64,000 bases of DNA from Nitrospiraceae bacterium (GCA_035573855.1 DATLZU010000026.1:3392-67391), one strand, 5' to 3'; positions 40,517 through 59,539 are shown, numbered from the stretch's first letter. Translations and numbers: made by a program. The notes: generated from the sequence alone by a model not told the origin.

Positions 40517-42010
40517 TCACGACGAGCAGCTCACGACCAGACGCTTGCCCCAGTCGGGCGGCGCGGCGGCGTAGGATTCCATGCCCGGCCGGTCGGTGAA
40601 AGGATCTCGAAGGACAGTGAGAAGGCGATCGATTTCAGAAAAATCTTTCTGCTGCGCCTGCTCGATGGCCCGCTGGGCCAGATAGTTCCGCAAGACATAC
40701 TTCGGATTCACGCGGTTCATGCGCCGCCGGCGCTCTGCATCCTCGCTGTCTTCGTCACGCAGCCGGGCGGCGTATCGCCGGGCCCACGCGTCAACGGCGT
40801 CGCGATCCACAAAGAAATCGCGCAGCGCGGAATCGGCTCCCGGTCTGTTTCCTTTTCCGCTGGGCGAAACGGTCACAAAGTCGCCCAATGTTCGGAAACA
40901 GATCGTATAGTCCACGCGGCCGGCCTGCATCAGCGCCAACAAGTCCTGGATCAGGGTTTCGTCTTCCGGTCTTGACCGTTCTAGCCCCAGCTTCGCCCGC
41001 ATCAATGCCCAGTAGTGGCGATTCAACGTCGCCTCATAGGTGTCGAGAGCGGCTTTCAGCGCCTCCTTGGCCGCCAATGGCAGCAAGGCCTGGGCAAGGC
41101 AGCTCAGATTCCAGAGACCGATATACGGCTGCCGGTCGAAGGCATAGCGGCCGTTGTGGTCAGAGTGGTTGCAGATAAAGCCGGGATCATAGTCGTCCAT
41201 GAAGCCGAACGGCCCGTAGTCGAGCGTCAGGCCCAAGATCGACATATTGTCTGTGTTCATCACCCCGTGCGCAAAGCCGATCGCCTGCCACTGGGCGATG
41301 AGCTGCGCCGTCCTCGTCACCACTTCCTGGAAGAAGCGGGCGTAGCGGTCCTCAGCCTTGAGCAGATGGGGAAAGTGCTGCTCGATCACGTAATCGGCCA
41401 GCCGTTTGAGATGCTCGTGCTGCCGGCGATAGTAAAACACCTCGAATGTGCCAAAACGGACATGCGAGGGCGCCATCCGCAGGAGCATCGCGCCGGTCTC
41501 GACCCGCTCGCGATACACCTTGTCGTCGCTGCCGACCACACACAGGGCGCGCGTGGTGGGAATGCCCAGCCCGTGCATCGCCTCACCGCACAGATACTCG
41601 CGGATGGCCGACCGCAGGACCTTGCGCCCATCGCCGTCTCGCGAAAACGGCGTCCGCCCGGCGCCCTTCAGATGCAGGTCCCACTTCTCCCCGCACTCGT
41701 TGCGCACTTCTCCTAGCAGGATAGCGCGCCCGTCGCCGAGTTGCGGCACGTACACCCCGAACTGGTGGCCGGCGTACAGCATCGCCAGCGGCTCCATGCC
41801 GGGCACCAGCAGGCTCCCGCTGAACACGCCCACGAACTCGGGCCGCTCCGCTTCCGCGGGATCGAGATCGATCAGCGCCGCGGCGTCGGGATTGAAGCTC
41901 ACCAGATAGGGCGGCTGCTCAAATGGGGTTGGATTCAGCTTGGCGTAGAACGCCTCCGGCAGGCGCGCGTAAGTGTTGTCGAAACGCAAGGTTTCCAGCG
42001 TTCGGGACAT
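40517..42010 (-). CDS. selO: Protein adenylyltransferase SelO (YdiU family)
   Basis: From ATG 42010: MSRTLETLRFDNTYARLPEAFYA...YAGHQFGVYVPQLGDGRAILLGE...MNTDNMSILGLTLDYGPFGFMD. Confidence 0.9.
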   Translation of the reverse strand: MSRTLETLRFDNTYARLPEAFYAKLNPTPFEQPPYLVSFNPDAAALIDLDPAEAERPEFVGVFSGSLLVPGMEPLAMLYAGHQFGVYVPQLGDGRAILLGEVRNECGEKWDLHLKGAGRTPFSRDGDGRKVLRSAIREYLCGEAMHGLGIPTTRALCVVGSDDKVYRERVETGAMLLRMAPSHVRFGTFEVFYYRRQHEHLKRLADYVIEQHFPHLLKAEDRYARFFQEVVTRTAQLIAQWQAIGFAHGVMNTDNMSILGLTLDYGPFGFMDDYDPGFICNHSDHNGRYAFDRQPYIGLWNLSCLAQALLPLAAKEALKAALDTYEATLNRHYWALMRAKLGLERSRPEDETLIQDLLALMQAGRVDYTICFRTLGDFVTVSPSGKGNRPGADSALRDFFVDRDAVDAWARRYAARLRDEDSEDAERRRRMNRVNPKYVLRNYLAQRAIEQAQQKDFSEIDRLLTVLRDPFTDRPGMESYAAAPPDWGKRLVVSCSS

Positions 42011-42080
42011 CGCTTCGCAGCCTTGTCGGGTCCGCCCTATTACGCCACGCTCGCGCGGTCCGAGGCGGGAGCCCGCGACC

Positions 42081-42458
42081 TCACCGGAAGCCAGATTCCA
42101 GATCGCGGTCGAGCGTGAACACGAACACCCGTTCGCCCACCTGCGTGTCGATGTCCGTAAACAGCGCGAGCGCGTTGGCCCCGGTAATTTCACTGACCTG
42201 GTCGAACAGCCTCTCCCGTCCCTGCGCGATTAGATTCTGTCGCAGCCGTTTCACCATGTCCACACCGTCGGGCGTTTTGGCGAGTTGTCGTTCCGCCGGC
42301 GTCAGGACGCCTTTCAAGCGCACCACGACCATGTCTCGGATAATGAAGGCCCGCACGTCTTCCGGGCCGCGTCCCATGAACTCCTGCTCGAACCTGATGA
42401 CCGCGTTGCGAATAGCGGCCTCGACCTCGCCTTTGGTCCGCTTTTCCTGGTGATTCAT
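42081..42458 (-). CDS. mpsC: DUF2294 / MpsC-family protein
   Basis: 125 aa. Contains AIRNAVIRFEQEFMGRGPEDVRAFIIRDMVVVRLKGVLTPAERQLAKT. Divergent from the dabB leader. Confidence 0.75.
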   Translation of the reverse strand: MNHQEKRTKGEVEAAIRNAVIRFEQEFMGRGPEDVRAFIIRDMVVVRLKGVLTPAERQLAKTPDGVDMVKRLRQNLIAQGRERLFDQVSEITGANALALFTDIDTQVGERVFVFTLDRDLESGFR

Positions 42459-42751
42459 CGATCCTCGTCGGCCGGAACGGGCGGAGGGATTATAAAGCGT
42501 TCTGACCCGCGCAGCGACAACAATATCCGCTCAGGGCCCGGCCATGGGCCTTAAGACCTACGACCTGGGACGAAATTTCTTTTGCCGTCACGCCGGCGTC
42601 TCGGCTATAAGAGCAGCATCGCAACATGAGGATGGGGCCTCGGCGCCGATTTCCACTCGGAGCCGGCGGATCCATCCGAGACCGTTTGCCGGAATTCTTG
42701 CGGCGGTAGGGCAGCCGGCTTTCTCCGGTGAGAAGGTCGGTTGCAGTGCAA

Positions 42752-42797
42752 GCCAGCCGGACTCCCTCGCAGAGGGAACGGTTGGCTTTTGTTTTTT
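42752..42797 (+). terminator. Intrinsic-terminator-like hairpin plus U-tract inside the dabB leader (attenuator candidate)
   Basis: GCCAGCCG (42752-59) pairs with CGGTTGGC (42779-86, one G.U). Inner CCCTC/GAGGG stem with a GCA loop. Immediately followed by TTTTGTTTTTT (42787-97). No plus-strand gene ends upstream of it. Confidence 0.55.
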
Positions 42798-42856
42798 GGG
42801 GCCTTGTTGGCCGTGCGAATCAGGCGTCCTCTCCGCGAAAGGCCGTGGCGCCGGAC

Positions 42857-44557
42857 ATGTCGCTCTCGATCCTTGTCCCGCTGTTGCCGCTGGCGACAGT
42901 TTTTCTCGTCCTGATCGGCGGACCTGCGACGCAGCATGGCCGCGCCAAGCTGGGCGTGGTGCCCATGGCCATGGCCTTTCTCGGCGCCATCGCGACATTG
43001 GGCGTCGTCGCTGCGCATGGGTCGGCCGACCTGCGGTTCTATGAGCCCGCCTCCGTCGGGAGACTCGCTCTCCCGCTGGGGTTCCGCATCGACCGGCTCA
43101 GCGCGGTCATGATGGTGCTGATCGCGGGGGTGGGCGCGGTCATTTACCGCTACTCTGTCGGCTACCTGTACCAGGATCGCGACTTCCGCCGGTTTCTGGC
43201 GCTCATCGGGTTCACGACCTTTGTGCTGCTCAGCATGGTGTCAAGCGCCAATCTCCTTATGCTCTTTGTGTGCTGGCAACTGCTGAGCTACCTGCTCTAT
43301 TTGCTCGCGCACAACCTTTCGCACGCCGCCACGCTGGATGGCGCGTTCCGCACATTCACGCTTCTGCGCGTCGGCGACGCCGCCTTTCTTGCCGGGATCG
43401 TGCTCGCGCACTCGCTGTACGGCACCCTGGAGTTCGACGAACTCTTCCTGCGGGCCGCTGAAGCTCCGGGCGCCTTAGCCTTGGCACCCGGTCTCGAGCT
43501 CAGCGGCCCCACCGTGGTGACGCTGCTGCTGTTCGTCGGCGCGATGAGCAAGTCGGCGCAGTTTCCTCTTCACATCTGGCTTCCGCGTTCTCTCTACGCC
43601 CCGACGCCGGTCCATGCGCTGTTGCATGCCGGCATCATCAACGCCGGCGGCTTTCTGCTGAATCGGCTCGCCCCCCTTTACGGACTGAGCTCCACGACCC
43701 TTCACGTCGCCTTCGTGATCGGTTCGCTCACGGCAATCCTCGGCGCGGCGATGATGCTGGCGCAGAACGACATCAAGAAAACGCTCGGCTTCTCCACTAT
43801 CGGACAAATGGGCTACATGATCATGGAATGTGGTCTGGGTGCGTTTTCGCTGGCGATCTTCCACCTCATCGCGCATGGGCTCTTCAAGGCGACCGTCTTC
43901 CTCAATTGCGGCAACGTCATTCACAAGGCCCGGCATGAGCCCGTCCTGCCGCGCGTCGCCCGCCCGTCCGAGGAAACCGAATTGTCCCGGCTCGCCTGGG
44001 CGACGGGATTCGTGACGACCCTGCTGCTCCCCCTGGTGATTTTGCTGGTGGCCCACGGGATCTTGCACATCCCGATCCGTGACTCCCAGGGGGCCGTGAT
44101 TTTCCTGTTCTTCAGTTGGGTCACCTCCTCTCAAGCGATCCTGACACTCACCCGCCTGCGGGCCGTTGCCTCGTGGAAGGTGTCCGCAGCCATGCTGGCG
44201 ACGCTGCTCCTCGTCGTGTTCACCTACCTCTTCGCCGCCGAATCCTTCACCGCGTTCCTCTATCCCGATCCGACGGAATTGGCTTCGTACTTCCATGCTG
44301 CGGCGCTGCCCACTCCCCTCTTCGACGCGCTCGTCGCAACGACAACTTTGCTGATCGTCCTCGGCTGGGTGTATTTGTACGCGCGCTCTCACGGACGGAC
44401 GGTGCGGGTGCCGGCCTGGGCAGAGCGGGGCCAGGCACATCTGTACGTGTTGTTTCTGAATCGGCTCTATCTGGACGAAATCTACGCCAAGTTGGGCCTG
44501 GCCGTCGCCCGCGCGATGACTTGCCTTGATCGCCGATCGTGGGGGAGAACAGGATGA
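42857..44557 (+). CDS. dabB: NuoL/MrpA-like proton-conducting membrane subunit (DabB/MpsA-type)
   Basis: From ATG 42857: MSLSILVPLLPLATVFLVLIGG... PF00361-type core (KSAQFPLHIWLPRSLYAPTPVHALLHAGIINAGGFLL). No other complex I genes are nearby. Confidence 0.8.
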   Translation: MSLSILVPLLPLATVFLVLIGGPATQHGRAKLGVVPMAMAFLGAIATLGVVAAHGSADLRFYEPASVGRLALPLGFRIDRLSAVMMVLIAGVGAVIYRYSVGYLYQDRDFRRFLALIGFTTFVLLSMVSSANLLMLFVCWQLLSYLLYLLAHNLSHAATLDGAFRTFTLLRVGDAAFLAGIVLAHSLYGTLEFDELFLRAAEAPGALALAPGLELSGPTVVTLLLFVGAMSKSAQFPLHIWLPRSLYAPTPVHALLHAGIINAGGFLLNRLAPLYGLSSTTLHVAFVIGSLTAILGAAMMLAQNDIKKTLGFSTIGQMGYMIMECGLGAFSLAIFHLIAHGLFKATVFLNCGNVIHKARHEPVLPRVARPSEETELSRLAWATGFVTTLLLPLVILLVAHGILHIPIRDSQGAVIFLFFSWVTSSQAILTLTRLRAVASWKVSAAMLATLLLVVFTYLFAAESFTAFLYPDPTELASYFHAAALPTPLFDALVATTTLLIVLGWVYLYARSHGRTVRVPAWAERGQAHLYVLFLNRLYLDEIYAKLGLAVARAMTCLDRRSWGRTG

Positions 44558-45861
44558 CGGCCTGGGCGACCGCGTCTCTGCTGATCGTGGTGACGCCGCT
44601 CCTGGGCGCGGCGTCGGGCTTGCTCCTGTGGGGCCACCCCCGCATGCTCAAGGTTTGGGGACTGCTGGTCGCTGCGGCGAGCTTTCTCATGACGTGCTGG
44701 AGTCTGGGGTCCCTTCCTGTTGCGGCCGGCGCGTTCCCGCACCTCTTGCTCCTGCCGCTGACCGCCTTTCTCTCGCTGTTGGGGCAACCGGCTCATCGCA
44801 GCAACCAACCGGCCTGGTTGCTGAGCCTGCTCTTACTCGGGTTCGGGCTGGGCACGTTCGTCGGCGAAGGTCCTCTCTCCTTGATGTGTCTGCTGCTGGT
44901 TCTCGCCCTTGTCGGCCTCGCCCTGGCGGTCCATCATGTCTTTCCCGGACCTGCAGCTTGGTGGGGAATCGGGACGCTGGGGTGCGGCGTTCTGAGCCTC
45001 GCGCTCGCCCTCGTCGCGCCTTCTCCCGTTTCCTCCCTCGCCTTCCTGGTGGGCTGCGCCATCGCGCTGCCACTGGTACCGTTGCACCACGGCTACGTCG
45101 CCGCCCTCACGGCACTGCCCGGCAACCTGCCCGCCTTTCTCGCCCTGCTCCTCCCGACGCTCGGGTTCCACGGGCTCGAGGCAGCGCTTCCCGAGCTGCC
45201 GGATGGGCCGGCGCAGGCAGCCGCGGGGCTGGCTCTCGCGGGAACCCTCTACGGTTCGCTCAAGGCTCTGGCTCAAGCGCGTCCGGCTGTGCTCATCGCC
45301 TACGGCAATCTGGCGTTCCTCTCCATTCTGTGGTGGTATCTGGCCGAGACCCGCACGGCCCCGTCCCCGGCGGCCGTTTACTTGAGCGCAGTCGGGCTGG
45401 CGGGCAGCGGATTGCTGCTCGCGTGGTACGCTTTGTGCGCCCGCTACGGTGACGTCGATCTTCGGGCCTTGAGCGGGCTGGCGCGCCCGATGCCGCGTTT
45501 CGCCGTCGCGCTCTCGCTTCTGGCGCTCGCCGCGCTGGGGCTGCCGCCCTTCGGCGTATTCTCCGGCTTGGTCGGCATGCTGCTGGCGCCGTCCTACGCA
45601 GCGCCCGGCGGCTTGCTCGTCATCGTGATCGTCTGGCTCTGCGCATCCTGGTATTTCTTCGATCTTCCGCACCGCCTCCTGTTCGGCCCGGAGCGAGCGA
45701 CCCTGCGTCATCAGGATCTGCGGGGCCCTGAAGCGGCTTCGCTTGCCCTTGTGATCGTCATCCTGTTGATGCTGGGCGTGATGCCGTCCCGGCCGATCGA
45801 ATCCGCCCCGGCGCCGCTTCACCCAACGGCCACCGCGGAGTTTCCCGCATGGACCAAATAG
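44554..45861 (+). CDS. Second, degenerate antiporter-like (NuoM/N-like) polytopic membrane subunit
   Basis: ATG 44554 overlaps the dabB stop (ATGA) and follows SD GGGGGAG. About 435 aa, L/A/G-rich, about 12 or more hydrophobic segments. Only weak echoes of PF00361 (ALPLVPLHHGYV where canonical subunits have PxHxWLP). Confidence 0.6.
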   Translation: MTAWATASLLIVVTPLLGAASGLLLWGHPRMLKVWGLLVAAASFLMTCWSLGSLPVAAGAFPHLLLLPLTAFLSLLGQPAHRSNQPAWLLSLLLLGFGLGTFVGEGPLSLMCLLLVLALVGLALAVHHVFPGPAAWWGIGTLGCGVLSLALALVAPSPVSSLAFLVGCAIALPLVPLHHGYVAALTALPGNLPAFLALLLPTLGFHGLEAALPELPDGPAQAAAGLALAGTLYGSLKALAQARPAVLIAYGNLAFLSILWWYLAETRTAPSPAAVYLSAVGLAGSGLLLAWYALCARYGDVDLRALSGLARPMPRFAVALSLLALAALGLPPFGVFSGLVGMLLAPSYAAPGGLLVIVIVWLCASWYFFDLPHRLLFGPERATLRHQDLRGPEAASLALVIVILLMLGVMPSRPIESAPAPLHPTATAEFPAWTK

Positions 45862-48800
45862 CGCGTGACATCGACATGGAAGCCCGCCGCATGGAATTGC
45901 GCGGCATCGTCCGCGTGGCCGGCGAGGTGATCGCGCCGTATTGGCCCATGCGCACGTTTGTGCACCACAATCCGTTGCACGGCCTCGAATATCTGCCGTT
46001 CGACGACGCGGTCGAACGGGGCGCGCAGTTCCTCGGAGGAAGGGGCTATCTCGCGGGCGACCTGTATCGGCACTATTTCCGAATTGGCCGGATTCACCTC
46101 CCTCACCTGGAAGAGGCGCTACGCCCGTTGGCCCGTGACGAGCACGTGATCGTCGGCCCGTGCCGCATCGCCCATCGCGAGGTCCTGCGGGCCTGTCTCA
46201 CCCACGGGCTGTGCGCACTGCCGGACGAACCGCTCGACGCCCTGGTGGACAGCGGACCGAACGAAGACCTGGTCCGCGCCCTGGCCGACTATCTGGCTCC
46301 CGTCTTGTCGGCTCCGACCGCGCGCGAGCAGATGGCTGCGGCGGTGAAAGAGGACCGTTCGTCTCTGGGACGCTGTGTGACCCTGTCAAGTTGGTGCGAC
46401 CGCACCTGCGGCACGTCCATCGTCGCCCGGGTCAACGATGAAATGGTGAAGTGGTGTGAAGCGTTTTTGGACGAAGGCCATGCCGGCTGGGCGATGCCCG
46501 GGCGGGAACGGGGGTTCTACATCGCGTGGAAATCCCTGGCGGCGAAGGAATGGTCGCCTTGCGGCATTGCGGACAGTCGGCGGAAGATCGCGGCGCTGCC
46601 CGAGCGTCCTGAAGATGCCGTCCTGGAAAGCCTCGACCTACTCGCCATTTCCCACGAGCTTCGGCAAGACTATCTCTCGCTCCAGCTCACCGCGCTCCCT
46701 GGCTGGCCTGCGTTTATCAAGTGGCGCGAGGAACGGCCCAACTATGTGTGGCAACAGGCGTGCCCGATCAGTCTCGTGAAATTCCTGGCCGTCCGCCTCT
46801 GGTATGAGCGCGAACTGGTGCAACAAGTTTGCCGCGAAGCATTGGGGATCGCCGGGACCTTCCCCGCGGTGATGGGCTACATGGAGCAGCGCTCCGAAGC
46901 GTATTTCCTGCGCAAGGAACGGGCCACCGGGCGCTTGCCGGTTCCCTATGCCGACCTGGTCGATCGGCTGGCCCGCTGGGGCGACGGGTGGACAGAGGCG
47001 GTCGACCGCCTTCAGACGGAGATGGGCCCGCGTCGCGACCGGGCTTTCCGCTTAACCGCAGCCCGGCGCTTACTCGCGCTGGCCCAGGCGCTGGGTATCG
47101 TGCCGACGGTCCTGCTGGAGAGCGCTCCGGAGCATCTGGCCTTGCTCGCGCGCTGGATGGATGAATTCCCTGAGTCGGCTCACGGTCCCGTCTGGCTCAA
47201 GGCGTTCGAAGCCGGCTACCACGACCAGTTATTCGGCCAGCTCATGCGGACGTCCTCCCTTTCGCGCACGAGCGAGCGGGAGCGGTCCGTTCCGGTCAGA
47301 CCTCAATCGCAATCGGTCTTTTGCATCGATGTGCGGTCCGAGCCATTCCGGCGTCACTTGGAATCCACCGGCGCGAACGAGACCTACGGCTTCGCCGGGT
47401 TCTTCGCCGTCTTCATTCGCTTCCGGCCATGGGGGAAAAATCATGAGACCGAGCAGTTTCCGGTGATCATGCGGGCCAAGAACGAGGTGCGCGAGTTTCC
47501 CCGGAGCTATCATGATCACATGGTGCCCAAGCACGAATCGAGGACCAAACTGGTCCGTGCGGGACACACCCTGTTGCATGACCTCAAAGAGAACGTGGTA
47601 ACACCCTATGTCATGGTGGAATCGCTGGGCTGGTTCTACGGCTTGCCGTTATTCGGCAAGACCTTCTTTTCCGCGTGGTACCGCCGCTGGACGGCCCGGC
47701 TGCGGCGGCTCTTCGTGCCGCCCATCGCCACCACCGTGACCGTTGACAAACTGACCCCAGCGGACACCGAAGAGCTGGTCGCGGCGGAACAGCGGGCGAT
47801 CATCTGGAAGGCCTTACGCAGCGAGCTTGGCCTGCATGGCCCACGGGTTTCACCCGAACTCGTGGAAGCGCTGCGCCGACAGGCGCTGAACGGCGACGGT
47901 TCACTGACATCCCAGGTGCCGGAGCTCGTTCAGCGCACCGAGTTCTCATCGGAAGCGCTGGCAAACTTTGTGCAGATCCTGCGCCGCCGATACGACGTCA
48001 ATCCTCGGTCGGCCTCGCGGCAGCGGGAACGGATTACGCGGACGGGCTTCACGCTGGAGGAGCAGGTCTTCACGGTGGAGACGGCGCTCCGGATGATGGG
48101 CCTCATCCGCAACTTCGCGCGACTCGTCTTGTTCTGCGCGCACGGCAGCACGTCGGACAACAACCCGTTCGAGTCGGCGCTGGATTGCGGCGCCTGCGGT
48201 GGCAACGCCGGCAAGCCCAACGCCCGGGTGCTTGCCGGCATGGCTAACAAGCCGCAGGTCAGGGCGCGACTGGCCAAAAATGGAATCGAGATTCCGTCCG
48301 ACACCTACTTCCTCGCCGGCCAGATCGATACGACGACGGACGAAGTGGAGCTTTTCGACCTCGAAGACGTCCCGCTGACCCACCGGAAAGACGTGGCCCG
48401 TTTGCTGGATGATTTGCGGGAAGCCGCCCGCTTGACCAGCCAGGAGCGGTGTGCCCGCTTTCCGGATTTGGCGCGACCGCTGTCCGTTCCGCAGGCCGTG
48501 GCGCACGTGCGCGCCCGGGCCGCCGACTGGAGTCAGATCCGGCCCGAATGGGGGCTGTCCGGCAACGCAGCCTTCATCATCGGGCGCCGCGAGCTGACGA
48601 AGGGGCTCGACCTCGCCGGGCGCGTGTTCCTGCACTCGTACGACCACCGGGAAGACCCGACCGGCCGCCTTTTGGAAGTCCTGATGACGGCGCCGCAGAT
48701 CGTAGCGCAGTGGATTAACACGGAACATTATTTTTCCACCGTGGACAACGAAGTCTATGGCGCCGGGAGCAAAGTATATCATAACGTCGTGGGGCGGATC

Positions 48801-49091
48801 GGGATTATGTCCGGTCCCTGGAGCGATCTACGGCTCGGCCTGGCTAGGCAAACGGTCATGAACGGCGAGGTCCCTTTCCACGAGCCCATGCGGTTGCTGA
48901 CTGTGATCGAAGCTCCCCGAGCCATCATCGAGAAGCTGATCACGCGCCACGAGCTGTTACGCCATTTTTATCATCACGAGTGGGTGCACCTCGCCGCGCT
49001 GGACCCCTCGGACGGAGCCGTGTATCGTTACCGGCCGACCGGTGAGTGGAGTCGGGCCATCCGTTGCGATTTCCTTGCGCCGGATCGGTGA
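45849..49091 (+). CDS. dabA: DUF2309 protein (DabA/MpsB-type, beta-carbonic-anhydrase-like)
   Basis: 1080 aa. Contains [16 protein letters not shown] (TGC ATC GAT at 47322-47330), [25 protein letters not shown], and C-terminal [11 protein letters not shown]. Its start overlaps the end of the preceding gene. Confidence 0.85.
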   Translation: [1080 protein letters not shown]

Positions 49092-49167
49092 CGGCGCACA
49101 CCGGGACCCATCGCATCTTTAAAGGATGCCAGGTGCGGCCTGCACCGGACAGGAAAGGAGCCAACGC

Positions 49168-49509
49168 ATGAGCGCCCTGACGTTGCATCCCATGAAGGAG
49201 ATTCGTGTCATCGTCGCCGGAGAACACCGGGCGTTCGTCACCGACTTGTTGGACCGGGTAAACGCCACCGGATACACGATCATCGGTAATGTGTCGGGGA
49301 AAGGCCATCATGGATTCCGCGAAGCGCACTTCATGTTCAGCGAGCAGGAAAGCCTGGTGATGATCATGACCGTCGTCCCGGAAGAGAAGGTTGAGCCGAT
49401 TCTGGCCGGACTGCGCCCGTTGTTCGAACGGCACTCCGGCGTGATGTTCGTCGCGAACGTGGCCGTCAGCCGGCGGGAATATTTCGGCAAGACGGACGGC
49501 GGGAGCTGA
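49168..49509 (+). CDS. P-II-family signalling protein (CPII-like)
   Basis: ATG 49168 after SD AAAGGAG. 113 aa. Contains MKEIRVIVAGEHRAFVTDLLDRVNATGYTIIGNVSGKGHHG and the beta-alpha-beta P-II pattern. Confidence 0.65.
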   Translation: MSALTLHPMKEIRVIVAGEHRAFVTDLLDRVNATGYTIIGNVSGKGHHGFREAHFMFSEQESLVMIMTVVPEEKVEPILAGLRPLFERHSGVMFVANVAVSRREYFGKTDGGS

Positions 49510-49606
49510 ACGCTGGAGGATGAGGAGTTCCCTGTTCGCCCTTGTCTTTGCTCGACGGGTTTGTCTACAATGACCGCCTCATCGGCCGATGGAAGGGAGA
49601 CCCCGC

Positions 49607-49876
49607 GTGAAGGGTTTGCGATTCGAGCGAATCGGCAGAGACCGATACTACAACGTCGTCTTTCACATTGGCTCGACCTATGTACCGGTAAGCGACGAGA
49701 CGGTCGAAGAACTCAAGGCGCACAGCTTGTTGCCGGCCGAGCGGTTTCTCGACCTGCTGCTCGACAAGGTCGGCTATTCGTCCTACCTCAAAGATCAGAT
49801 CCGCGCCGAACTGAAAAGCGCCGGCGACCCCGTCACCCAAATCACGGTGCTCCAAGGAACGATCCGGGAGCTGTAG
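49607..49876 (+). CDS. Small hypothetical protein (89 aa) trailing the DAB cluster
   Basis: GTG 49607 lies 7 nt after SD GGAAGGGAG. Product: (M)KGLRFERIGRDRYYNVVFHIGSTYVPVSDETVEELK... I do not recognise a domain. Confidence 0.4.
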   Translation: MKGLRFERIGRDRYYNVVFHIGSTYVPVSDETVEELKAHSLLPAERFLDLLLDKVGYSSYLKDQIRAELKSAGDPVTQITVLQGTIREL

Positions 49877-49895
49877 GCGCCACGCGCGGCGTGCG

Positions 49896-50939
49896 TCACG
49901 TATCCCACGCCCCGCCTTCTTTGAAGATCTGGTTCATGATCTCGTTTTTCTTCTGGGGATCCCGCTCGTACTTGAGCGCCTTGGTGTAGTTGTCGATGGC
50001 GGTCTGCACCTTCCCGCGACAGGCATACACCTTCGCCACGCCCAGGTAGGCGCGCGCATTCTCAGGATCGGCTTTCAAGGCCCGGTTGAAGGCGTCCATG
50101 GCGTCCTCCAGATGCCCCTTTTCAAACAACAGCCAACCGATTTCGACGCGCGCGGGCGCGAAATCGGGATTCGCCTGGACCGCCGCCTCATATTCTTTCA
50201 GCGCCAAATCTTTCCGACCCCGACTTTCGTACAAGCCGCCCAGTGCATAGCGCACCTCCGCGTCTTGGGGGTTCAGGCGAACCGCCTCCTTGTATTCCAG
50301 CAACGCCGCCTCCGTCTTGCCCTGCTCCAGCAGGGCGCAAGCGAGATTCGCATGGGCGATCGGGTCGTTCGGATTCAGCCGGATCACTTCGCGGTACTGG
50401 GGAATCGCCATCTCGAGCCGGCCCTGTTCCTGATAGGCCACCCCTAGGTTGGTCCGGGCCGGGATGTAGGTCGGGTCCAGCTTGACGGCCTCACGGTATT
50501 CCTTGATCGCCAGTTCAAGCCGGTCCGCACGCTCATGGATCTGGGCGAGGAAATAATGCGGATAAGCGGAAAGCGGATCGAGTCTAATGGCCTCCTTGTA
50601 ACACTCCACCGACTGCTCGGATTTCCCGGATTGAGCCAGGAACAATCCCATGACCAAGTGGACGGTGGCCTTGTCCGGATGCCGGGCACGCAAGTCCTCC
50701 ATCCAGGCGCGGATCACCTCGATGTCCTCGCCCTCCTTCAACGCTTGGGCGTGAGTCTTCCAGGCCTCCGCGAATCGTCCTTTGATGAGATGCACGACAT
50801 TCAGCGCGAAGTACGGCCGCGGCTCGCGTCGGTCCTCCGGCACCGCCTGTGCCCACGCCGTCGCTTCCCCGAGCGCCGCGTCCCAGTCGCCCCGCAGGAT
50901 GGCCTCTTCGATCCGAACCGCGTAGTCCGACCCGCTCAA
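49896..50939 (-). CDS. Tetratricopeptide repeat protein
   Basis: 347 aa with about 8 canonical 34-aa TPR units (A..Y.EA..L.P....A..NLG). Confidence 0.85.
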   Translation of the reverse strand: MSGSDYAVRIEEAILRGDWDAALGEATAWAQAVPEDRREPRPYFALNVVHLIKGRFAEAWKTHAQALKEGEDIEVIRAWMEDLRARHPDKATVHLVMGLFLAQSGKSEQSVECYKEAIRLDPLSAYPHYFLAQIHERADRLELAIKEYREAVKLDPTYIPARTNLGVAYQEQGRLEMAIPQYREVIRLNPNDPIAHANLACALLEQGKTEAALLEYKEAVRLNPQDAEVRYALGGLYESRGRKDLALKEYEAAVQANPDFAPARVEIGWLLFEKGHLEDAMDAFNRALKADPENARAYLGVAKVYACRGKVQTAIDNYTKALKYERDPQKKNEIMNQIFKEGGAWDT

Positions 50940-51446: not shown

Positions 51447-52955
51447 TTATCGGGTGAGCGTGTCCTCCACGTCCGGCGGCGTCGCCTGGACCAGATCGCC
51501 CAGCATCGGATAGCGCTCGGCGAGCTTTCGTTTCATCGACCAGGCGACGGTCCGGTATGACCAGTGTCCTTTCACGCCCGACCGGAGCTTGGCGATGTAC
51601 TCCGCCTCCGCGAAGTCCATCTTGAACAGGCAACGGACCCGGAAGCCAAAGGGAATCGCGTAGAGCGCGGCTTCCTGGCTGGTTTCGCGCAACCGCTCGA
51701 TGTCCGCTTTCACGGCGTCCATGGCATCCCGATAGTCCCGTTCGAGCCCGGCTTGGACGAGCGCCGGCGGGATGTCGTATCCGTGGACGGTCGTGAAGTT
51801 CTGCTGGACCTGCTGGCAACGCCGGTGTCGGTGCAGGTCCCGCCAGCCGCCGATGTCCATGAGGATGTCGAAGACGAACGCATACCCGCTACGGAACTCC
51901 TTGACCAATTCGTCGTAGGGCCCGCGCTTCCGCAGTGCGACTTCGATTGTGTCTCGCTTTTGCTTCTCAGTCCACTCGCGCACGACGGCAAGAATGTGTC
52001 GATACGGCGCCTGCGTTACGCGATAGAGCAGCGTGGCGACGAGTTCGTCGAGCGGGTGATGGGGCTCGATGAGGTCCACCGGGTCGTCCTGCTTTCTCAG
52101 CCTGTTGGGCGCCCGCACCGAATCCGGTTGATCGAGTCCCGTCCCCTTCAGCACTTCGCGCGCGTGCCGCGCCAGATCCCGGTACACTTCGGCCTGATAG
52201 GCGCTCGCCTTGGCATGCCTGGCCAGCGTCGGCGCCAGCGGCTCGGCCAGCCCGGCCGCCTGCCCCACCAGTTCTTTCCAAAGATTGACGGGGGGGCGGA
52301 GGCAGGCTTCTTTCAGTTCTTCCCCGATGGCCCGCAGTTCCGGTAACGGGGAGGAGAGCAGGCGTGTCATCTGCTTTTCAAGCGTCCTGATGCTCACCAC
52401 CTGCCCGACATTGGTGCAGGCGGCGAGTGGCAGGAGGTAGCGCGTCACGTCGAACGCACGGGCCGCGATCGTCCGTTGGTATTGCGCCGGCGTCATAGAT
52501 TCCGGCCGCGGCTCGCGTTCGGACAGGAATCGGGTCAGCGGCTCATGCAATGTGCGGTACACGTTGGCTAGGCTGCGGAGAATGCCCTGATAGATCCCTT
52601 CCGTTTCTGTGCCGCGGATGGAGTCCGGCACGTACCAGGTGCTGGAGGCGAAGTTCTGGTAGCGGCTGGATTTCGCCTGACCGTCCCACAACGGTTCGTC
52701 CTCCAGTCGGATCGCCGCCAACTCCGAGATGTGCTCGAAACAGACGATGACATGCCCCAAATCGGCGATCGAGGCGTGCCCGTAATCGAAGTAGAACTGT
52801 TCCCAGAACCTCTCGGACGAGTGGGCGTGGACCCACCGGATGCTGTCCTCAATCGAATCCGGCGAGCGGCTGTAGCGGGCCAACGCGTACGCGGATTTCT
52901 CCGGCGGCATGGGCGCAACGGCGATGACCCTACGTTGTGACCCGACAGTGGTCAT
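51447..52955 (-). CDS. thyX: Tandem-domain (pseudo-dimeric) ThyX-like FAD-dependent thymidylate synthase
   Basis: 502 aa with two ThyX-like halves. The first half contains GHASIADLGHVIVCFEHIS...AKSSRYQNF. The second half contains WRDLHRHRRCQQVQQNF. Confidence 0.6.
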   Translation of the reverse strand: MTTVGSQRRVIAVAPMPPEKSAYALARYSRSPDSIEDSIRWVHAHSSERFWEQFYFDYGHASIADLGHVIVCFEHISELAAIRLEDEPLWDGQAKSSRYQNFASSTWYVPDSIRGTETEGIYQGILRSLANVYRTLHEPLTRFLSEREPRPESMTPAQYQRTIAARAFDVTRYLLPLAACTNVGQVVSIRTLEKQMTRLLSSPLPELRAIGEELKEACLRPPVNLWKELVGQAAGLAEPLAPTLARHAKASAYQAEVYRDLARHAREVLKGTGLDQPDSVRAPNRLRKQDDPVDLIEPHHPLDELVATLLYRVTQAPYRHILAVVREWTEKQKRDTIEVALRKRGPYDELVKEFRSGYAFVFDILMDIGGWRDLHRHRRCQQVQQNFTTVHGYDIPPALVQAGLERDYRDAMDAVKADIERLRETSQEAALYAIPFGFRVRCLFKMDFAEAEYIAKLRSGVKGHWSYRTVAWSMKRKLAERYPMLGDLVQATPPDVEDTLTR

Positions 52956-55760: not shown

Positions 55761-56081
55761 ATGCAGAGAAAGAAACTCGGAATCTTACTCTCGACACCCC
55801 AATCGCATCCCAGTGTGGAGACGGTCGCCACCCTGTCTTCTGAAGCGCTGGCACAGCAGATCGATGTCTACCTCTACCTCATCGACGAGGGAGTGAAGAA
55901 CGTGCGTGATCCGCGCTTGACCGAATTGGCGCATCGTGGTGTCAAACTGTTTGCATGCGCATACGGCTGCCAACGGCACGGCGTATCGACCGAAGGGCTC
56001 GATCCCGCCATATCTCTGTGCGGACTCGTCGTCCTCTCGAACATGGTAGCCGGTTGCGATCGATTTCTTGCGTTTACCTGA
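55761..56081 (+). CDS. DsrE/TusD-like protein
   Basis: From ATG 55761: MQRKKLGILLSTPQ...IDVYLYLIDEGV...KLFACAYGCQRHGV. About 106 aa. Confidence 0.6.
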   Translation: MQRKKLGILLSTPQSHPSVETVATLSSEALAQQIDVYLYLIDEGVKNVRDPRLTELAHRGVKLFACAYGCQRHGVSTEGLDPAISLCGLVVLSNMVAGCDRFLAFT

Positions 56082-56102
56082 CCCTTAGACGCTCGGCTCG
56101 CG

Positions 56103-56450
56103 ATGCCTTACCATGTTGCCGTCGTCATCCGCGCGAATCCCACAAAGACGCACCGTGCGGTTGAGGCGCTTCGCATTGCTCTCGGTTTGAGCGCTGGCGA
56201 GCATACCGTGACCGTCTTCCTTCTAGATCAAGCTCCTGCGCTCCTCACGGAGGACCTCGAACATGTCATTGACGCCGACATTCTCGAAAAATATTTACCT
56301 TCTCTCGAGCAATTAGGTACCCCGTTTGTGGTCGTCGAGGGGACGCTGTCCCAGTTCCGCATAACCCCCGGTTTTAACGTTCGTGAAGAGCAACTCTTTA
56401 GGATTGCCGAACTGATTGCGTCGAGCGATCGGGCGCTGGTGTTCTCCTGA
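56103..56450 (+). CDS. DsrF/TusC-like protein
   Basis: 115 aa. Contains VAVVIRANPTKTHRAVEALRIALGLSAGEHTVTVFLLDQA. Confidence 0.55.
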   Translation: MPYHVAVVIRANPTKTHRAVEALRIALGLSAGEHTVTVFLLDQAPALLTEDLEHVIDADILEKYLPSLEQLGTPFVVVEGTLSQFRITPGFNVREEQLFRIAELIASSDRALVFS

Positions 56451-56462
56451 GGAAAACAGCTG

Positions 56463-56732
56463 TTGCGGAAGGTCCTTTATCTCGTCAGGCGAACGTCGGT
56501 CGAGGACGTCGCGGACCTGATTCTCTCTCCTGCCGCTGTAGAGCGGGAGGTGGAGGTGACGATTGTTCTGCTCGAGGGAGCGGAGAATTTTCCTTTTCGG
56601 GCGCATCGGGTTCTGAGGCTGGCCTCTGTAGAAGAAGCGACCGGGGTAAATTTCTGCTCGAAAGTGCCGGTGATTTCGCACACGGCTTTGGTCGGCGAGA
56701 TATTTGCGTCAGACAAGGTAGTGGTTCTGTGA
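56463..56732 (+). CDS. DsrH/TusB-like protein
   Basis: 89 aa. TTG start after SD GAGGAAAA. Third small DsrE/F/H-fold ORF in a row. Confidence 0.45.
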   Translation: MRKVLYLVRRTSVEDVADLILSPAAVEREVEVTIVLLEGAENFPFRAHRVLRLASVEEATGVNFCSKVPVISHTALVGEIFASDKVVVL

Positions 56733-57046
56733 AGAGTGCTGCTTTCTTCCTCCGTGATGTGATCGCTACACGGGAGAGAAACCGTAAGAGGGGGATTAGG
56801 AGTAAGCTGTGTGAATAGGGTGTATTTGTTTAACTATCTGAAAAAGCAGATGTTTTTTATGTTTAATAAGGTGGATGGGCCTGGGGAAAACCTCGTGGAA
56901 GAGATGTCCGGAATTAGGAGGAGAATGGTGAGATCGAAGCGTGAAAAAGGGTATGGAATATGCTGAGTACTCAAAGAAACTGACTGCGGATTCCCTTGTT
57001 ATCCACAATTGTGAATAAGGTTGTGTATAGCTTCGAGGTCGGAAAG
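56733..57046. other. Chromosomal replication origin region (oriC candidate)
   Basis: DnaA boxes: perfect TTATCCACA (56999-57007), inverted TGTGAATAA (57010-18), TGTGTATAG (57022-30) and TGTGAATAG (56810-18). An AT-rich tract (56821-56870) sits in an otherwise GC-rich window. The region lies directly upstream of dnaA. Confidence 0.6.
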
Positions 57047-58387: not shown

Positions 58388-58411
58388 AGGTTCGAGGCGG
58401 AGGGACCATTT

Positions 58412-59539
58412 ATGAAGATGCGGATCGGTCGTGACGAGCTGCTGACCGGCTTGCAACGCGTCCAGGGGGTGGTGGAAAAGCGGAACACTATGCCCATTCT
58501 GTCGAATGTGCTGCTGGAAGCCAAGCAGGAAGGGACGGAGATCGTTGCCACCGACCTGGAGATCGGCATGCGGGGCCTGTACAAGGCCACCGTGCTGGAG
58601 CCCGGAGGCATCACACTCTCAGCGCGGAAGCTCTACGAGATCATCAAGGAATTGCCGGACGGCGACGTCGAGTTGACCACTGGCGACAATCATTGGACGA
58701 CAATCCAGGCCGGCAAGAGCCAATTCAAGATCGTGGGCTTGCCCAGCGGCGACTACCCGGCTCTGCCGGCGATCGAGCGCGAAGGGTTGACGCCGTTGAC
58801 CGGCGCCGGCTTCCTGGAGTTGATCCGCAAGACGTTGTTCGCCGCCGGGGACAACGACGCGCGCTACATCTTGAACGGGTTGCTGGTCACCCTGGCCGCG
58901 ACCGACAAGAAGACCATGCTGCGGCTGGTTGGGACGGACGGGCATCGCCTGGCCGTCGCCGAGCAGGAAATCGGCCAACCCGGCAGCAGGAACGTGCCGA
59001 AGGACATCAAAGCTATCATCCCGAAAAAGGCCGCCCAGGAGATCCGCCGGCTCCTGGAAGAAGGCGGCGACGAAGAGCCGTTGATCGGGTTCACCAAGAA
59101 TCTGATGATCTTTCGCAAGAGCGGCCTGCTCCTGACTTCGCGGTTAATGGAGGGCAACTACCCGAACTACCAGCAAGTCCTCCCCAAGGAGAGCCACAAG
59201 CGGATCGCCGTGAAGCGCGGCGAGTTGGAAAGTGCGCTACGGCGGGTCTCCGTTTTGTCGCGCGACAAGGCCAACGCGGTGAGGCTCTCCTTCGCGCCAG
59301 GGAGACTGACGCTGTTTGCGAGCCATCCGGAGTACGGCGAAGCCACCGAAGAATTAGCCGCCCGGTACGAGGGCGAGCCGTTGACCACCGGCTTCAACGC
59401 GCGCTACCTGCTGGATGTCTTCGGCGTGATGGACGGGGACACCGTCACCCTGCAAATGGAGACGCCGCTCAGCCCTTGCCTGATCCAGGAACCAGAGACC
59501 CCGGGGTTCAAGTGCGTGGTGATGCCTGTTAAGATATGA
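58412..59539 (+). CDS. dnaN: DNA polymerase III beta sliding clamp
   Basis: 375 aa. Contains MKMRIGRDELLTGLQRVQGVVEKRNTMPILSNVLLEA and ends PVKI. Confidence 0.96.
   Translation: MKMRIGRDELLTGLQRVQGVVEKRNTMPILSNVLLEAKQEGTEIVATDLEIGMRGLYKATVLEPGGITLSARKLYEIIKELPDGDVELTTGDNHWTTIQAGKSQFKIVGLPSGDYPALPAIEREGLTPLTGAGFLELIRKTLFAAGDNDARYILNGLLVTLAATDKKTMLRLVGTDGHRLAVAEQEIGQPGSRNVPKDIKAIIPKKAAQEIRRLLEEGGDEEPLIGFTKNLMIFRKSGLLLTSRLMEGNYPNYQQVLPKESHKRIAVKRGELESALRRVSVLSRDKANAVRLSFAPGRLTLFASHPEYGEATEELAARYEGEPLTTGFNARYLLDVFGVMDGDTVTLQMETPLSPCLIQEPETPGFKCVVMPVKI

What the first reader, a model, noticed from the sequence alone, without database searches (positions are those of the whole stretch)
42081..49876. 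Expanded DAB/Mps-type inorganic-carbon pump cluster: MpsC-like, DabB, an extra antiporter-like subunit, DabA, a P-II/CPII-like protein and a small ORF
Established knowledge:
- DUF2309 (DabA/MpsB) plus a NuoL-like subunit (DabB/MpsA) form energy-coupled CO2/bicarbonate accumulators. These are the DABs of Halothiobacillus and MpsABC of Staphylococcus.
- DUF2294 is MpsC.
- P-II-like CPII proteins occur next to such transporters.
Seen here:
- All of these components lie in one locus.
- DabA retains the predicted beta-CA-like metal-ligand motifs (FCIDVRSE; CAHGS...DCGACGG).
- The three large genes are translationally coupled. DabB and the next gene share ATGA, and that gene overlaps dabA by 13 nt.
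The described systems, as far as I know, have two core subunits. Here a third, degenerate antiporter-like membrane protein sits between dabB and dabA. A P-II-like gene and an 89-aa ORF trail the cluster, and mpsC is divergent. If the host is a Nitrospira-like rTCA autotroph (inference), this would be a candidate carbon-concentrating device of unusual composition.
Basis: partly seen in the sequence, partly recalled or inferred. Interest (0 to 1): 0.7.

Follow-up and report, generated by a model that had tools for sequence, protein, structure and literature searches.

The report
Nitrospira DAB1-type CO2 pump operon
This is a three-subunit, proton-driven CO2-hydrating pump of a known kind (DAB1: DabB, DabC, DabA, plus the regulator CPII) in a Nitrospira-like bacterium; what differs from described examples is a full-length third subunit and a conserved RNA leader in front of the operon that matches no Rfam family.

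Summary
HMMs assign:
- MpsC: 42081-42458, minus strand
- DabB: 42857-44557
- a weak PF00361 protein: 44554-45861
- DabA: 45849-49091
- a P-II protein: 49168-49509
- a real 89-aa gene: 49607-49876

The ATGA and 13-nt overlaps are exact. The DabA zinc ligands are intact.

DAB1 is DabA + DabB + DabC, and a 2026 preprint gives the Thermocrinis cryo-EM heterotrimer. DabC there is a NuoM-like, non-conducting but essential subunit.

The "extra" gene here is a DabC homologue (profile-profile probability 99%, E 6.5e-18). It lacks the NuoM Lys/Lys/Glu. The order dabB-dabC-dabA-P-II recurs in Nitrobacter, Guyparkeria and a contig whose protein NCBI assigns to Melainabacteria. The P-II protein matches the solved CPII (E 4e-35).

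Not described in the papers I could read:
- DabC is a full 14-helix, 435-aa form rather than about 250 aa.
- mpsC is divergently linked in 43/49 Nitrospiraceae loci.
- A covarying two-hairpin leader ending in a terminator-like stem (42698-42799) has no Rfam match. It precedes dabB in nearly all relatives, and elsewhere precedes an orphan dabA and an mrp operon.

The parts
42081..42458 (-). mpsC (DUF2294/PF10057), 125 aa, divergent from the dab operon
   Evidence: Pfam E 3e-36 over the full profile. Divergent mpsC lies within 1.5 kb of the first dabB in 43/49 evaluable Nitrospiraceae genome loci and in 89/98 metagenome loci. No solved homologue.
42489..42496 (-). Conserved TTTATAAT box (minus strand), a likely -10 element of mpsC. 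TATAAT lies 31-36 nt upstream of the mpsC ATG.
   Evidence: At least 80% conserved across 54 aligned mpsC-dabB intergenic regions; sequence read. Its function is inferred only.
42698..42799 (+). Conserved structured leader RNA. P1 is a long imperfect hairpin with conserved GUAGGG and CAGUGCAAG around an internal loop. P2 is a GC-rich hairpin followed by a U-run (intrinsic-terminator-like), ending 57 nt before the dabB ATG.
   Evidence: RNAfold -82.9 kcal/mol, z -3.1, 0/200 shuffles as good. RNAalifold gives 20 pairs, 6 compensatory. The covariance model gives 56 hits at E<=2e-6, one per locus, all on the dabB strand. 97.4% of cells pair against 23-41% when slid, and 13/20 pairs show double changes. 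No Rfam match.
42857..44557 (+). dabB, 566 aa, NuoL/NdhF-like proton-conducting subunit
   Evidence: PF00361 E 4e-47 plus PF00662. The PDB search lists NuoL/NdhF chains and DabB2 9rd0_B at E 7e-37. The printed alignments to Paracoccus NuoL and chloroplast NdhF keep the TM7 Lys (MSKSAQFPLHIWLP), HALLHAG and FHLIAHGLFKA. The TM5 Glu position reads Gln (WQLLSYLL).
44554..45861 (+). dabC, long form, 435 aa: a NuoM-derived third membrane subunit with about 14 predicted helices and no canonical proton-path residues
   Evidence: hhalign against the DabC family: probability 99.0%, E 6.5e-18, residues 165-410 to DabC 4-245. E. coli NuoM K234/K265/E407 align to A171/P201/L339. AF2 pTM 0.70. Foldseek top hits are NdhD/NuoM/ND4, query TM-score 0.69-0.74. 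Overlaps dabB by ATGA and dabA by 13 nt.
45849..49091 (+). dabA, 1080 aa, DabA1-type cytoplasmic beta-CA-like vectorial CO2 hydratase subunit
   Evidence: PF10070 E 4e-265. Ligands C492/D494/R496/H765/C780 are aligned to DabA2. DabA1 motifs NNPFESALDCGACGG and DWSQIRPEWGL are present; the Cys-Cys spacing is 288, against 260 in T. albus DabA1 and 188 in DabA2. The motifs are conserved in relatives.
49168..49509 (+). cpII, 113 aa, carboxysome-associated-type P-II-like protein
   Evidence: PF00543 E 1e-22. phmmer E 4e-35 over 103 residues to 5d4n/5d4l/5ds7, which I take to be the Thiomonas CPII entries. Follows dabA in 64/64 evaluable loci.
49607..49876 (+). Conserved 89-aa gene of unknown function; every organism name attached to its homologues is Nitrospira-like
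   Evidence: 621 homologues; the 120 best are 79-99% identical. AF2 pLDDT 90, three strands plus four helices. No significant PDB fold match and no Pfam or NCBIfam hit. Within 2.5 kb downstream of cpII in only 28/47 evaluable loci, so the link to DAB is weak.

Best explanation
The locus is a DAB1-type dissolved-inorganic-carbon accumulating complex of a Nitrospiraceae bacterium. It is transcribed as dabB-dabC-dabA-cpII.

Mechanism, by analogy with the solved DAB2 and DAB1 complexes:
- CO2 that has diffused into the cell is hydrated to bicarbonate at a deeply buried Cys2-His zinc site in cytoplasmic DabA.
- Proton flow through the NuoL-like DabB drives or gates that reaction in one direction.
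- DabC, the 'extra antiporter-like subunit', is a NuoM-derived scaffold beside DabB. It has lost the Lys/Lys/Glu proton path and conducts nothing. Here it is a full-length 14-helix form rather than the half-size proteobacterial form.
- CPII probably tunes the pump. [quoted passage not shown]

Shown here: family membership, ligand and motif conservation, DabC homology, synteny and translational coupling.

Inferred:
- Activity, stoichiometry and the structural role of DabC.
- Expression is probably controlled by the conserved 5' leader, whose terminator-like hairpin would cause premature termination unless an unknown signal or factor allows read-through.
- MpsC may belong to that control, because mpsC and the leader travel together.
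- In an organism without carboxysomes, the likely physiological role is to retain CO2 as bicarbonate and to supply bicarbonate-using carboxylases.
For: - Family assignments.
- DabA aligned to solved DabA2 with zinc ligands and the Asp-Arg dyad intact (residue roles).
- The DabA1-diagnostic motif NNPYESALDCGACGG is present as NNPFESALDCGACGG; 26 relatives carry the exact form and 38 the F form.
- DabB keeps the NuoL proton-path residues (roles).
- The middle protein is homologous to the DabC family: probability 99%, E 6.5e-18 over 239 columns.
- That DabC family sits in dabB-dabC-dabA-P-II operons in Nitrobacter and beside carboxysome genes in Guyparkeria.
- The same four-gene order with a long DabC occurs in a Melainabacteria-assigned contig and in another metagenome lineage.
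- Natural DabB-DabC fusions exist, followed by dabA and P-II. This argues for physical association.
- NuoM K234/K265/E407 equivalents are A-L-T-I / invariant Pro / L-F-M-Y in the family.
- CPII identity.
- Conserved synteny and the 13-nt overlap.
- Published function of a DAB1 from Thermocrinis albus, a genus listed among rTCA autotrophs: it rescues CA-free E. coli and needs DabC.
- Leader RNA.
Against: - No functional data exist for this or any Nitrospira DAB.
- The AF2 model of DabC is only moderate (pLDDT 64.5). Its C-terminal third, the part homologous to short DabC, is poorly predicted.
- The lid motif differs slightly from the DabA1 consensus: GFAGFFA against GI(A/G)GFFG.
- Long DabC keeps invariant polar residues (H178, H206, Q241, K33, D388, E393) whose role is unknown, so a purely structural role is not proven.
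- Nitrospira grows slowly on a high-potential donor, so an energised DIC pump is physiologically puzzling (PMC13147460).
- For the leader, no ligand, no conserved antiterminator and no transcript data are known. It could be an independent small RNA.
Confidence: 0.85

Rival explanations
1. One reading: a compositionally new, expanded DAB in which the middle gene is an additional working antiporter-like subunit. This would be a second ion path, for example Na+ or an extra H+ per CO2, giving a different stoichiometry from known DABs.
For: - The protein is a full-length 14-helix NuoM-like fold with a detectable PF00361 signature, unlike the half-size DabC that Phillips et al. describe.
- Several polar residues are invariant, including H178, which aligns with the His of the NuoM PLHGW motif.
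Against: - The three canonical NuoM charge positions in the aligned half are hydrophobic or Pro throughout the family.
- No conserved acidic residue appears among the invariant positions of the N-terminal helices.
- It is homologous to DabC, whose solved structure shows no water chain.
- It is the fastest-evolving gene of the operon: 42-61% identity against 65-77% for DabB.
Confidence: 0.08
2. The middle gene is a stray NuoM/MrpD paralogue belonging to a respiratory complex I or Mrp system, and is only adjacent to the dab genes.
For: JGI annotates homologues as NADH-quinone oxidoreductase subunit M. The best PDB sequence and fold matches are NuoM/NdhD.
Against: - ATGA and 13-nt overlaps with dabB and dabA; the 13-nt overlap is conserved in 49/49 measurable loci.
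- It always sits between dabB and dabA.
- NCBIfam NuoM scores are far below the cutoff, 74.6 against 263.8 bits.
- DabC homology and DabB-DabC fusions.
- The Pfam scan of 20 other long ORFs of the window found no further complex I or Mrp subunit.
Confidence: 0.02
3. The system works mainly as a cation-translocating, membrane-potential-generating (Mps-type, Na+-linked) complex rather than as a CO2 pump. Bicarbonate formation would be secondary.
For: [quoted passage not shown]
- An mpsC gene is linked here.
- The same leader RNA also precedes an mrp Na+/H+ antiporter-type operon in related contigs.
Against: - The zinc site and DabA1 coupling motifs are intact.
- DAB2 showed no sodium dependence and did not rescue a sodium-transporter-deficient strain.
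- DAB1 and DAB2 rescue CA-free E. coli.
- CPII linkage.
- A beta-carbonic anhydrase sits next to the cluster in some relatives.
Confidence: 0.05
4. The conserved element at 42698-42799 is not a cis-acting leader. It is an independent small RNA gene, or simply a terminator plus a stabilising hairpin.
For: - It ends in a canonical terminator-like hairpin with a U-run.
- By eye, no conserved alternative (antiterminator) pairing was found.
- No promoter was mapped.
Against: - It always lies on the coding strand just upstream of an ORF start.
- It precedes three different downstream genes (dabB, an orphan dabA, mrpE), and one locus holds two copies in front of two successive units.
- No same-strand gene lies upstream that would need a terminator, because mpsC is divergent.
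- The loop nucleotides are conserved while the stems covary.
Confidence: 0.2

Closest known systems
DAB1 (DabA1-DabB1-DabC) of Thermocrinis albus and Halothiobacillus neapolitanus (Desmarais et al. 2019; Phillips et al. 2026 bioRxiv 10.64898/2026.05.01.722082)
   Same: - Three genes, with dabC between dabB and dabA.
- A long DabA (about 1040-1090 aa) with the arm insertion and the NNP(Y/F)ESALDCGACGG and DWxxxRPEWGL motifs.
- A NuoL-like DabB with an intact proton path.
- A NuoM-like DabC lacking proton-path residues.
- A P-II gene after dabA in the Guyparkeria (Halothiobacillaceae) and Nitrobacter loci.
- T. albus belongs to a genus listed among rTCA autotrophs, as is Nitrospira.
   Different: - DabC here is 435 aa with about 14 helices and a weak PF00361 hit. 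[quoted passage not shown]
- There is no carboxysome context.
- A divergent mpsC and a structured 5' leader are present; neither was found in the Nitrobacter, Guyparkeria or Melainabacteria-assigned loci.
DAB2 (DabA2-DabB2) of H. neapolitanus, PDB 9rd0 (Lo et al. 2026, PMC13144422)
   Same: The same catalytic residues, a beta-CA-like core and NuoL-like coupling.
   Different: - DAB2 has two subunits, DabA2 is 827 aa, and the Cys-Cys spacing is 188 against 288 here.
- The YESA part of the coupling motif differs.
- The alignment to DabA2 is fragmented into four pieces. Nitrobacter DabA1 aligns in one piece over 98% of the protein.
MpsABC of Staphylococcus aureus (Fan et al. 2019, PMC6689103)
   Same: DabB/DabA homologues with a linked PF10057 MpsC gene.
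   Different: - In S. aureus mpsC lies downstream and is dispensable. It was reported not to be co-located with mpsAB homologues outside staphylococci.
- Here it is divergent upstream and is conserved with the leader RNA across Nitrospiraceae.
CPII, the carboxysome-associated P-II protein of Thiomonas intermedia (Wheatley et al. 2016). I take PDB 5D4L/5D4N/5DS7 to be its entries; the depositors name them 'nitrogen regulatory protein P-II'.
   Same: E 4e-35 over 103 residues, and the same position directly after dabA.
   Different: The host has no carboxysome locus nearby. Nucleotide and bicarbonate binding were not examined here.
NuoM/NdhD/MrpD antiporter-like subunits of complex I and Mrp
   Same: The fold and helix order, including the broken TM7 and TM12. 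The TM7 His is kept.
   Different: The Lys(TM7), Lys(TM8) and Glu(TM12) positions are replaced. The N-terminal six helices are compressed into about 155 residues. The protein is never found with other Nuo or Mrp genes.

Membership tests
DAB/DAC inorganic-carbon pump (DabA + DabB) | PF10070 protein co-located in an apparent operon with a PF00361 membrane subunit | tested here: met
   PF10070 E 4e-265; PF00361 E 4e-47; overlapping reading frames.
DAB/DAC inorganic-carbon pump (DabA + DabB) | Zinc ligands and Asp-Arg dyad equivalent to DabA2 C351, D353, R355, H524, C539 | tested here: met
   C492, D494, R496, H765, C780 in the HMMER alignment to 9rd0_A. CIDVRSE and DCGACGG are kept in 69-70 of the 80 related loci scanned, many of which hold only part of dabA.
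DAB/DAC inorganic-carbon pump (DabA + DabB) | Energy-coupled DIC accumulation, or rescue of carbonic-anhydrase-free E. coli | not testable with these tools
   Needs an experiment.
DAB1 subtype (DabABC heterotrimer) | A third membrane gene, dabC, between dabB and dabA, homologous to known DabC | tested here: met
   hhalign probability 99.0%, E 6.5e-18 against a 19-sequence DabC family. That family includes Nitrobacter, Thiomonas, Guyparkeria and Halothiobacillaceae members whose genes lie in dabB-dabC-dabA-P-II operons. Length differs: 435 aa against about 250.
DAB1 subtype (DabABC heterotrimer) | DabA1 motif NNPYESALDCGACGG, reported strictly conserved in 50 DabA1 sequences, and DW(XXX)RPEWGL | tested here: met
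   The window has NNPFESALDCGACGG (one conservative Y-to-F change; 26 relatives have the exact motif) and DWSQIRPEWGL.
DAB1 subtype (DabABC heterotrimer) | Lid motif GI(A/G)GFFG | tested here: inconclusive
   The window and 74 relatives read GFAGFFA. DabA2 itself reads GFAGFFG, so the first change is not subtype-specific.
DAB1 subtype (DabABC heterotrimer) | DabC lacks the NuoM proton-path residues (hydrophobic replacements) | tested here: met
   NuoM K234, K265 and E407 align to A171, P201 and L339. The family shows A/L/T/I, invariant P, and L/F/M/Y at these positions.
DAB1 subtype (DabABC heterotrimer) | 1:1:1 physical complex | not testable with these tools
   No multimer prediction is available. 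Indirect support comes from natural DabB-DabC fusion proteins.
Functional NuoM/MrpD-type proton-translocating subunit | Conserved Lys(TM7), Lys/His(TM8) and Glu/Lys(TM12) charge chain | tested here: not met
   All three are replaced. NCBIfam NuoM scores 74.6 bits against a cutoff of 263.8.
CPII (carboxysome-associated P-II-like protein) | Close sequence similarity to the solved protein, and a position next to DAB genes | tested here: met
   E 4e-35 over 103 residues to 5d4n/5d4l. The gene is present after dabA in 64/64 evaluable loci.
CPII (carboxysome-associated P-II-like protein) | Bicarbonate-dependent adenine-nucleotide binding | not tested
   The ligand residues were not mapped, and the primary paper is not held.
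MpsC (PF10057/DUF2294) | Full-length match to the Pfam profile | tested here: met
   E 3e-36, profile positions 1-111 of 111.
Any described RNA family (Rfam 15), for the leader | Covariance-model match | tested here: not met
   No match at gathering threshold over the whole window, and none at E<=1 on 42400-42900.

The most novel reading that the evidence does not exclude
The conserved leader at 42698-42799 is a new riboswitch-like or protein-dependent attenuator. Together with the co-travelling mpsC gene, it would control a Nitrospira regulon for inorganic-carbon uptake:
- dabBCA-cpII
- an orphan dabA
- an mrp operon that may be that orphan DabA's membrane partner

It would respond to a signal such as bicarbonate/CO2, pH or Na+.

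In parallel, the full-length DabC would be the evolutionary intermediate showing that DAB1 arose from an adjacent NuoL-NuoM pair.
Probability: 0.25. Interest if true: 0.8.

Novelty: new variant of a known kind. Interest (0 to 1): 0.42.

Why it matters
Read as a new pump composition, the finding adds little. It is the known DAB1 architecture, and DAC genes in Nitrospirota are already recorded.

Three points have some value.

1. **A bridge from DabC to NuoM.** The full-length DabC is detectable by PF00361. It links the half-size DabC, for which Phillips et al. report no Pfam family, to NuoM by sequence. Together with the DabB-DabC fusions, it gives natural variants (long, short, fused) for testing what DabC does.

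2. **A second lineage with linked mpsC.** The conserved mpsC linkage revisits the report that mpsC is not co-located with mpsAB homologues outside staphylococci.

3. **A handle on regulation.** None of the DAB papers read here describes how these pumps are regulated in organisms without carboxysomes. The structured, terminator-containing leader is shared by dabB, an orphan dabA and an mrp operon. It can be tested directly, and it hints that the 'orphan' DabA noted in Nitrospira genomes may work with an Mrp complex.

Nitrospira are key nitrite oxidisers in wastewater treatment and soils. A recent genome survey calls their large DIC toolkit 'mysterious' (PMC13147460).

Tried and rejected
**Papers not held:** Schmid et al. 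2021 (J Bacteriol), Scott et al. 2020 (FEMS Lett) and Wheatley et al. 2016 (CPII). Their content is cited only through papers that quote them.

**Searches that gave nothing:**
- The consensus promoter/terminator scan of 41900-50100 was no better than shuffles, and it missed the bulged P2 hairpin.
- Direct BLASTP of the middle protein against Nitrobacter DabC was not significant (E 1.1). Profile against single sequence gave 76% probability. Only profile against profile was decisive.
- The 89-aa protein has no Pfam or NCBIfam family and no significant PDB fold match despite a confident model. The best Foldseek hit was E 0.7, to the microcin synthetase complex (McbBCD).
- MpsC has no solved homologue.
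- The exact 16-mer of the leader occurs only in copies of the window's own genome.

**Readings considered and rejected:**
- A pseudogene or decaying remnant for the middle gene. It is an intact ORF in 80 species-level genomes, with conserved overlaps.
- A repeat (REP-like) element for the leader.
- An antiterminator between the 3' strand of P1 and the 5' strand of P2. It can be drawn for the window sequence but, by eye, is not conserved in other lineages. This was not tested formally.

**Not pursued:**
- The taxonomic placement of the host within Nitrospiraceae.
- The identity of the organism behind L091.

Full report
**1. What is there**

Six genes occupy 42081-49876.

| Gene | Coordinates | Assignment |
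|---|---|---|
| mpsC | 42081-42458, minus | PF10057, E 3e-36 |
| dabB | 42857-44557 | PF00361 E 4e-47 + PF00662 |
| middle gene | 44554-45861, 435 aa | weak PF00361, E 2.7e-9, residues 160-346 only |
| dabA | 45849-49091, 1080 aa | PF10070, E 4e-265 |
| P-II gene | best start 49168, 113 aa | PF00543, E 1e-22 |
| small gene | 49607-49876, GTG start, 89 aa | no family |

- NCBIfam places the middle protein nearest NuoM, but far below the cutoff: 74.6 against 263.8 bits.
- The stated overlaps are exact: ATGA at 44554-44557 and 13 nt at 45849-45861.
- The exact proteins occur on a 3.83-Mb NCBI assembly. An 89-aa protein 99% identical to the small ORF, recorded on a contig of that same length, is named 'Nitrospiraceae bacterium'.
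- The window also holds dnaA, dnaN, gyrB and an aconitase.

**2. DabA and DabB are intact**

- DabA aligns to the solved H. neapolitanus DabA2 (9rd0). FCIDVRSE and HGS...LDCGAC are conserved, which places C492, D494, R496, H765 and C780.
- These correspond to the zinc ligands and Asp-Arg dyad shown by cryo-EM and mutagenesis.
- DabA carries the motifs reported as diagnostic for DabA1: NNPYESALDCGACGG (here Y to F) and DW(XXX)RPEWGL.
- The Cys-Cys spacing is 288 residues, against 260 in T. albus DabA1 and 188 in DabA2. This fits the DabA1 'arm' insertion.
- Relatives keep these motifs.
- In the printed alignments to NuoL and NdhF, DabB keeps the TM7 Lys, the TM8 His and the His-His-Lys of TM11. 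The TM5 Glu position reads Gln; DabB2 has Ile at that position.

**3. The 'extra' subunit is DabC**

- Three-subunit DABs are already in the literature. The H. neapolitanus DAB1 has a gene between dabA1 and dabB1.
- A 2026 preprint solved the T. albus DabA-DabB-DabC heterotrimer. [quoted passage not shown] Its proton-path positions are hydrophobic, it has no water chain, and it is nonetheless required.
- A tblastn search of plasmids found a Nitrobacter hamburgensis operon: dabB (565 aa), a hypothetical protein (253 aa), DUF2309 (1037 aa) and P-II (108 aa). It is duplicated and lies next to a LysR gene and cbbL.
- The family of that 253-aa protein is 241-270 aa long. It includes Thiomonas, Guyparkeria and Halothiobacillaceae members.
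- In Guyparkeria the gene lies in dabB-dabC-dabA-P-II-cbbQ beside carboxysome genes.
- A profile of 12 Nitrospira-type middle proteins matches a profile of 19 DabC proteins at 99.0% probability, E 6.5e-18. Residues 165-410 align to DabC 4-245.
- Against E. coli NuoM, K234, K265 and E407 align to A171, P201 and L339. The family shows only hydrophobic residues or Pro at these positions.

**4. How this DabC differs**

- It has about 160 extra N-terminal residues.
- The AF2 model (pTM 0.70, pLDDT 64.5, best in the N-terminal half) shows about 14 helices, including broken TM7 and TM12.
- Its best PDB fold matches are full-length NdhD/NuoM/ND4, with query TM-score about 0.7.
- An exhaustive profile search found 109 representative clusters at E<=1e-30.
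  - Many are 405-463 aa.
  - Canonical NuoM-length proteins appear only near E 1e-22.
- Long forms with the same dabB-dabC-dabA-P-II order occur in two more places:
  - a contig whose protein NCBI assigns to Melainabacteria;
  - another metagenome lineage that has a beta-CA just upstream.
- DabB-DabC fusions of 783-877 aa also exist. They contain only the short DabC core. One is followed by dabA and P-II.
- So DabC exists in long, short and fused forms. The C-terminal TM7-14-like half is the common core.

**5. Conservation in Nitrospiraceae**

The best 80 genome loci with a relative of the middle protein are, apart from two unnamed records, titled Nitrospira, Nitrospiraceae, Nitrospirales or Nitrospirota. 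Counts are over evaluable loci.

| Feature | Count |
|---|---|
| dabB upstream | 64/65 |
| dabA downstream | 66/66 |
| P-II after dabA | 64/64 |
| 13-nt dabC/dabA overlap | 49/49 |
| divergent mpsC within 1.5 kb | 43/49 |
| 89-aa gene within 2.5 kb | 28/47 |
| two tandem dabB copies | 20/65 |

- By identity to the window: P-II 80-95%, the small gene 73-90%, MpsC 66-82%, DabB 65-77%, DabA 60-74% and DabC 42-61%.
- The P-II protein matches PDB 5d4n/5d4l/5ds7 at E 4e-35. I take these to be the Thiomonas CPII entries.
- The 89-aa protein folds confidently but matches nothing.
- It belongs to a wider syntenic block that runs SelO, mpsC, the dab genes, the TPR gene, then ThyX. Its link to DAB is therefore weak.

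**6. A conserved leader RNA**

- Aligning 54 mpsC-dabB intergenic regions showed conserved blocks.
- Window 42698-42799 folds into two adjacent hairpins (-82.9 kcal/mol, z -3.1).
  - P1 keeps GUAGGG and CAGUGCAAG around an internal loop, while its distal stem varies with compensatory changes.
  - P2 is GCCAGCCG.../...CGGYUGGC followed by a U-run, ending 57 nt before the dabB ATG.
- A covariance model found 56 hits at E<=2e-6 in 1.2 Mb. There is one per Nitrospiraceae locus, all on the coding strand, and those I inspected lie just upstream of the first dabB. None occurs in the Nitrobacter, Guyparkeria or Melainabacteria-assigned loci.
- 97.4% of cells pair, against 23-41% in slid controls. 13 of 20 pairs show double changes, and 0/500 shuffles reach this. 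A second set gave similar values.
- These alignments were fitted to the model, so they lean towards the structure. The independent MAFFT/RNAalifold result agrees with them.
- Rfam 15 has no match.
Of these, 112 could be evaluated.
  - dabB follows in 98, and 89 of those have a divergent mpsC upstream.
  - An mrpE-mrpF-mrpG-mbhD-type operon follows in 6 (checked by Pfam in one). Five of these have a second, divergent DabA just upstream.
  - A DabA-like gene follows directly in 4.
  - Something else follows in 4.
- One locus reads mpsC, leader, orphan dabA, leader, mrpE.
- I read this as a cis-regulatory attenuator or riboswitch-like element. Its signal is unknown. An independent small RNA is the main alternative.

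**7. Verdict**

The locus is a DAB1-type dabB-dabC-dabA-cpII operon.
- The features I did not find described are the full-length DabC, the conserved mpsC linkage and the leader RNA. Fan et al. reported that mpsC is dispensable in S. aureus and not co-located with mpsAB homologues outside staphylococci.
- All functional statements are inferred from homologues.

Noticed in passing
window 42698-42799 (+); 56 Nitrospiraceae genome loci of L007-L086; metagenome loci L094-L213: A conserved, covarying two-hairpin leader RNA with a terminator-like 3' hairpin lies upstream of dabB. It has no Rfam match. It recurs in front of an orphan dabA and an mrp operon in related metagenome contigs.
   Followed up: yes
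L109, L130, L148, L153, L165, L184 (metagenome contigs): A second, divergent DabA with no adjacent dabB is followed by the same leader and then an mrpE-mrpF-mrpG-mbhD-type operon. This 'orphan' DabA resembles the one noted for N. moscoviensis and N. tepida in PMC13147460. It may therefore partner with an Mrp complex.
   Followed up: partly
L015, L023, L028, L029, L036, L037 and 14 further loci (20 of 65): Two tandem dabB paralogues precede dabC in many Nitrospira lineages, for example L023 4427-6115 and 6304-8004. The window has only one.
   Followed up: partly
L023 3008-3655 (-); L091 4542-5180 (+): A beta-carbonic anhydrase gene lies directly beside the dab cluster in some relatives: between SelO and mpsC in L023, and upstream of dabB in L091. 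It is absent at the corresponding place in the window.
   Followed up: no
P0322, P0328, P0347, P0361, P0367, P0369, P0396; L093 1149-3764: There are natural DabB-DabC fusion proteins of 783-877 aa that contain only the short DabC core. In L093 the fusion is followed by dabA (1045 aa) and P-II.
   Followed up: partly
window 49607-49876 (+): An 89-aa protein conserved at 79-99% identity among the 120 best of 621 homologues; every organism name attached to them is Nitrospira-like. Its predicted fold is confident (three strands, four helices) with no structural or family match. Function is unknown.
   Followed up: yes
window 42489-42496 (-): A TTTATAAT box is conserved across Nitrospiraceae, with TATAAT 31-36 nt upstream of the mpsC start codon. 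It is a likely mpsC -10 promoter element.
   Followed up: no
window 56000-62136: dnaA (56996-58387), dnaN (58412-59539) and gyrB (59635-62136) follow a GC dip to 0.547 at 56-58 kb. The dab cluster therefore lies about 7 kb from the probable replication origin.
   Followed up: no
window 40517-42010 (-), 49896-50939 (-), 51447-52955 (-): SelO, a TPR protein and a ThyX-domain (PF02511) protein flank the cluster. They stay syntenic with it in many Nitrospira genomes, so neighbourhood alone overstates functional linkage for mpsC and the 89-aa gene.
   Followed up: partly
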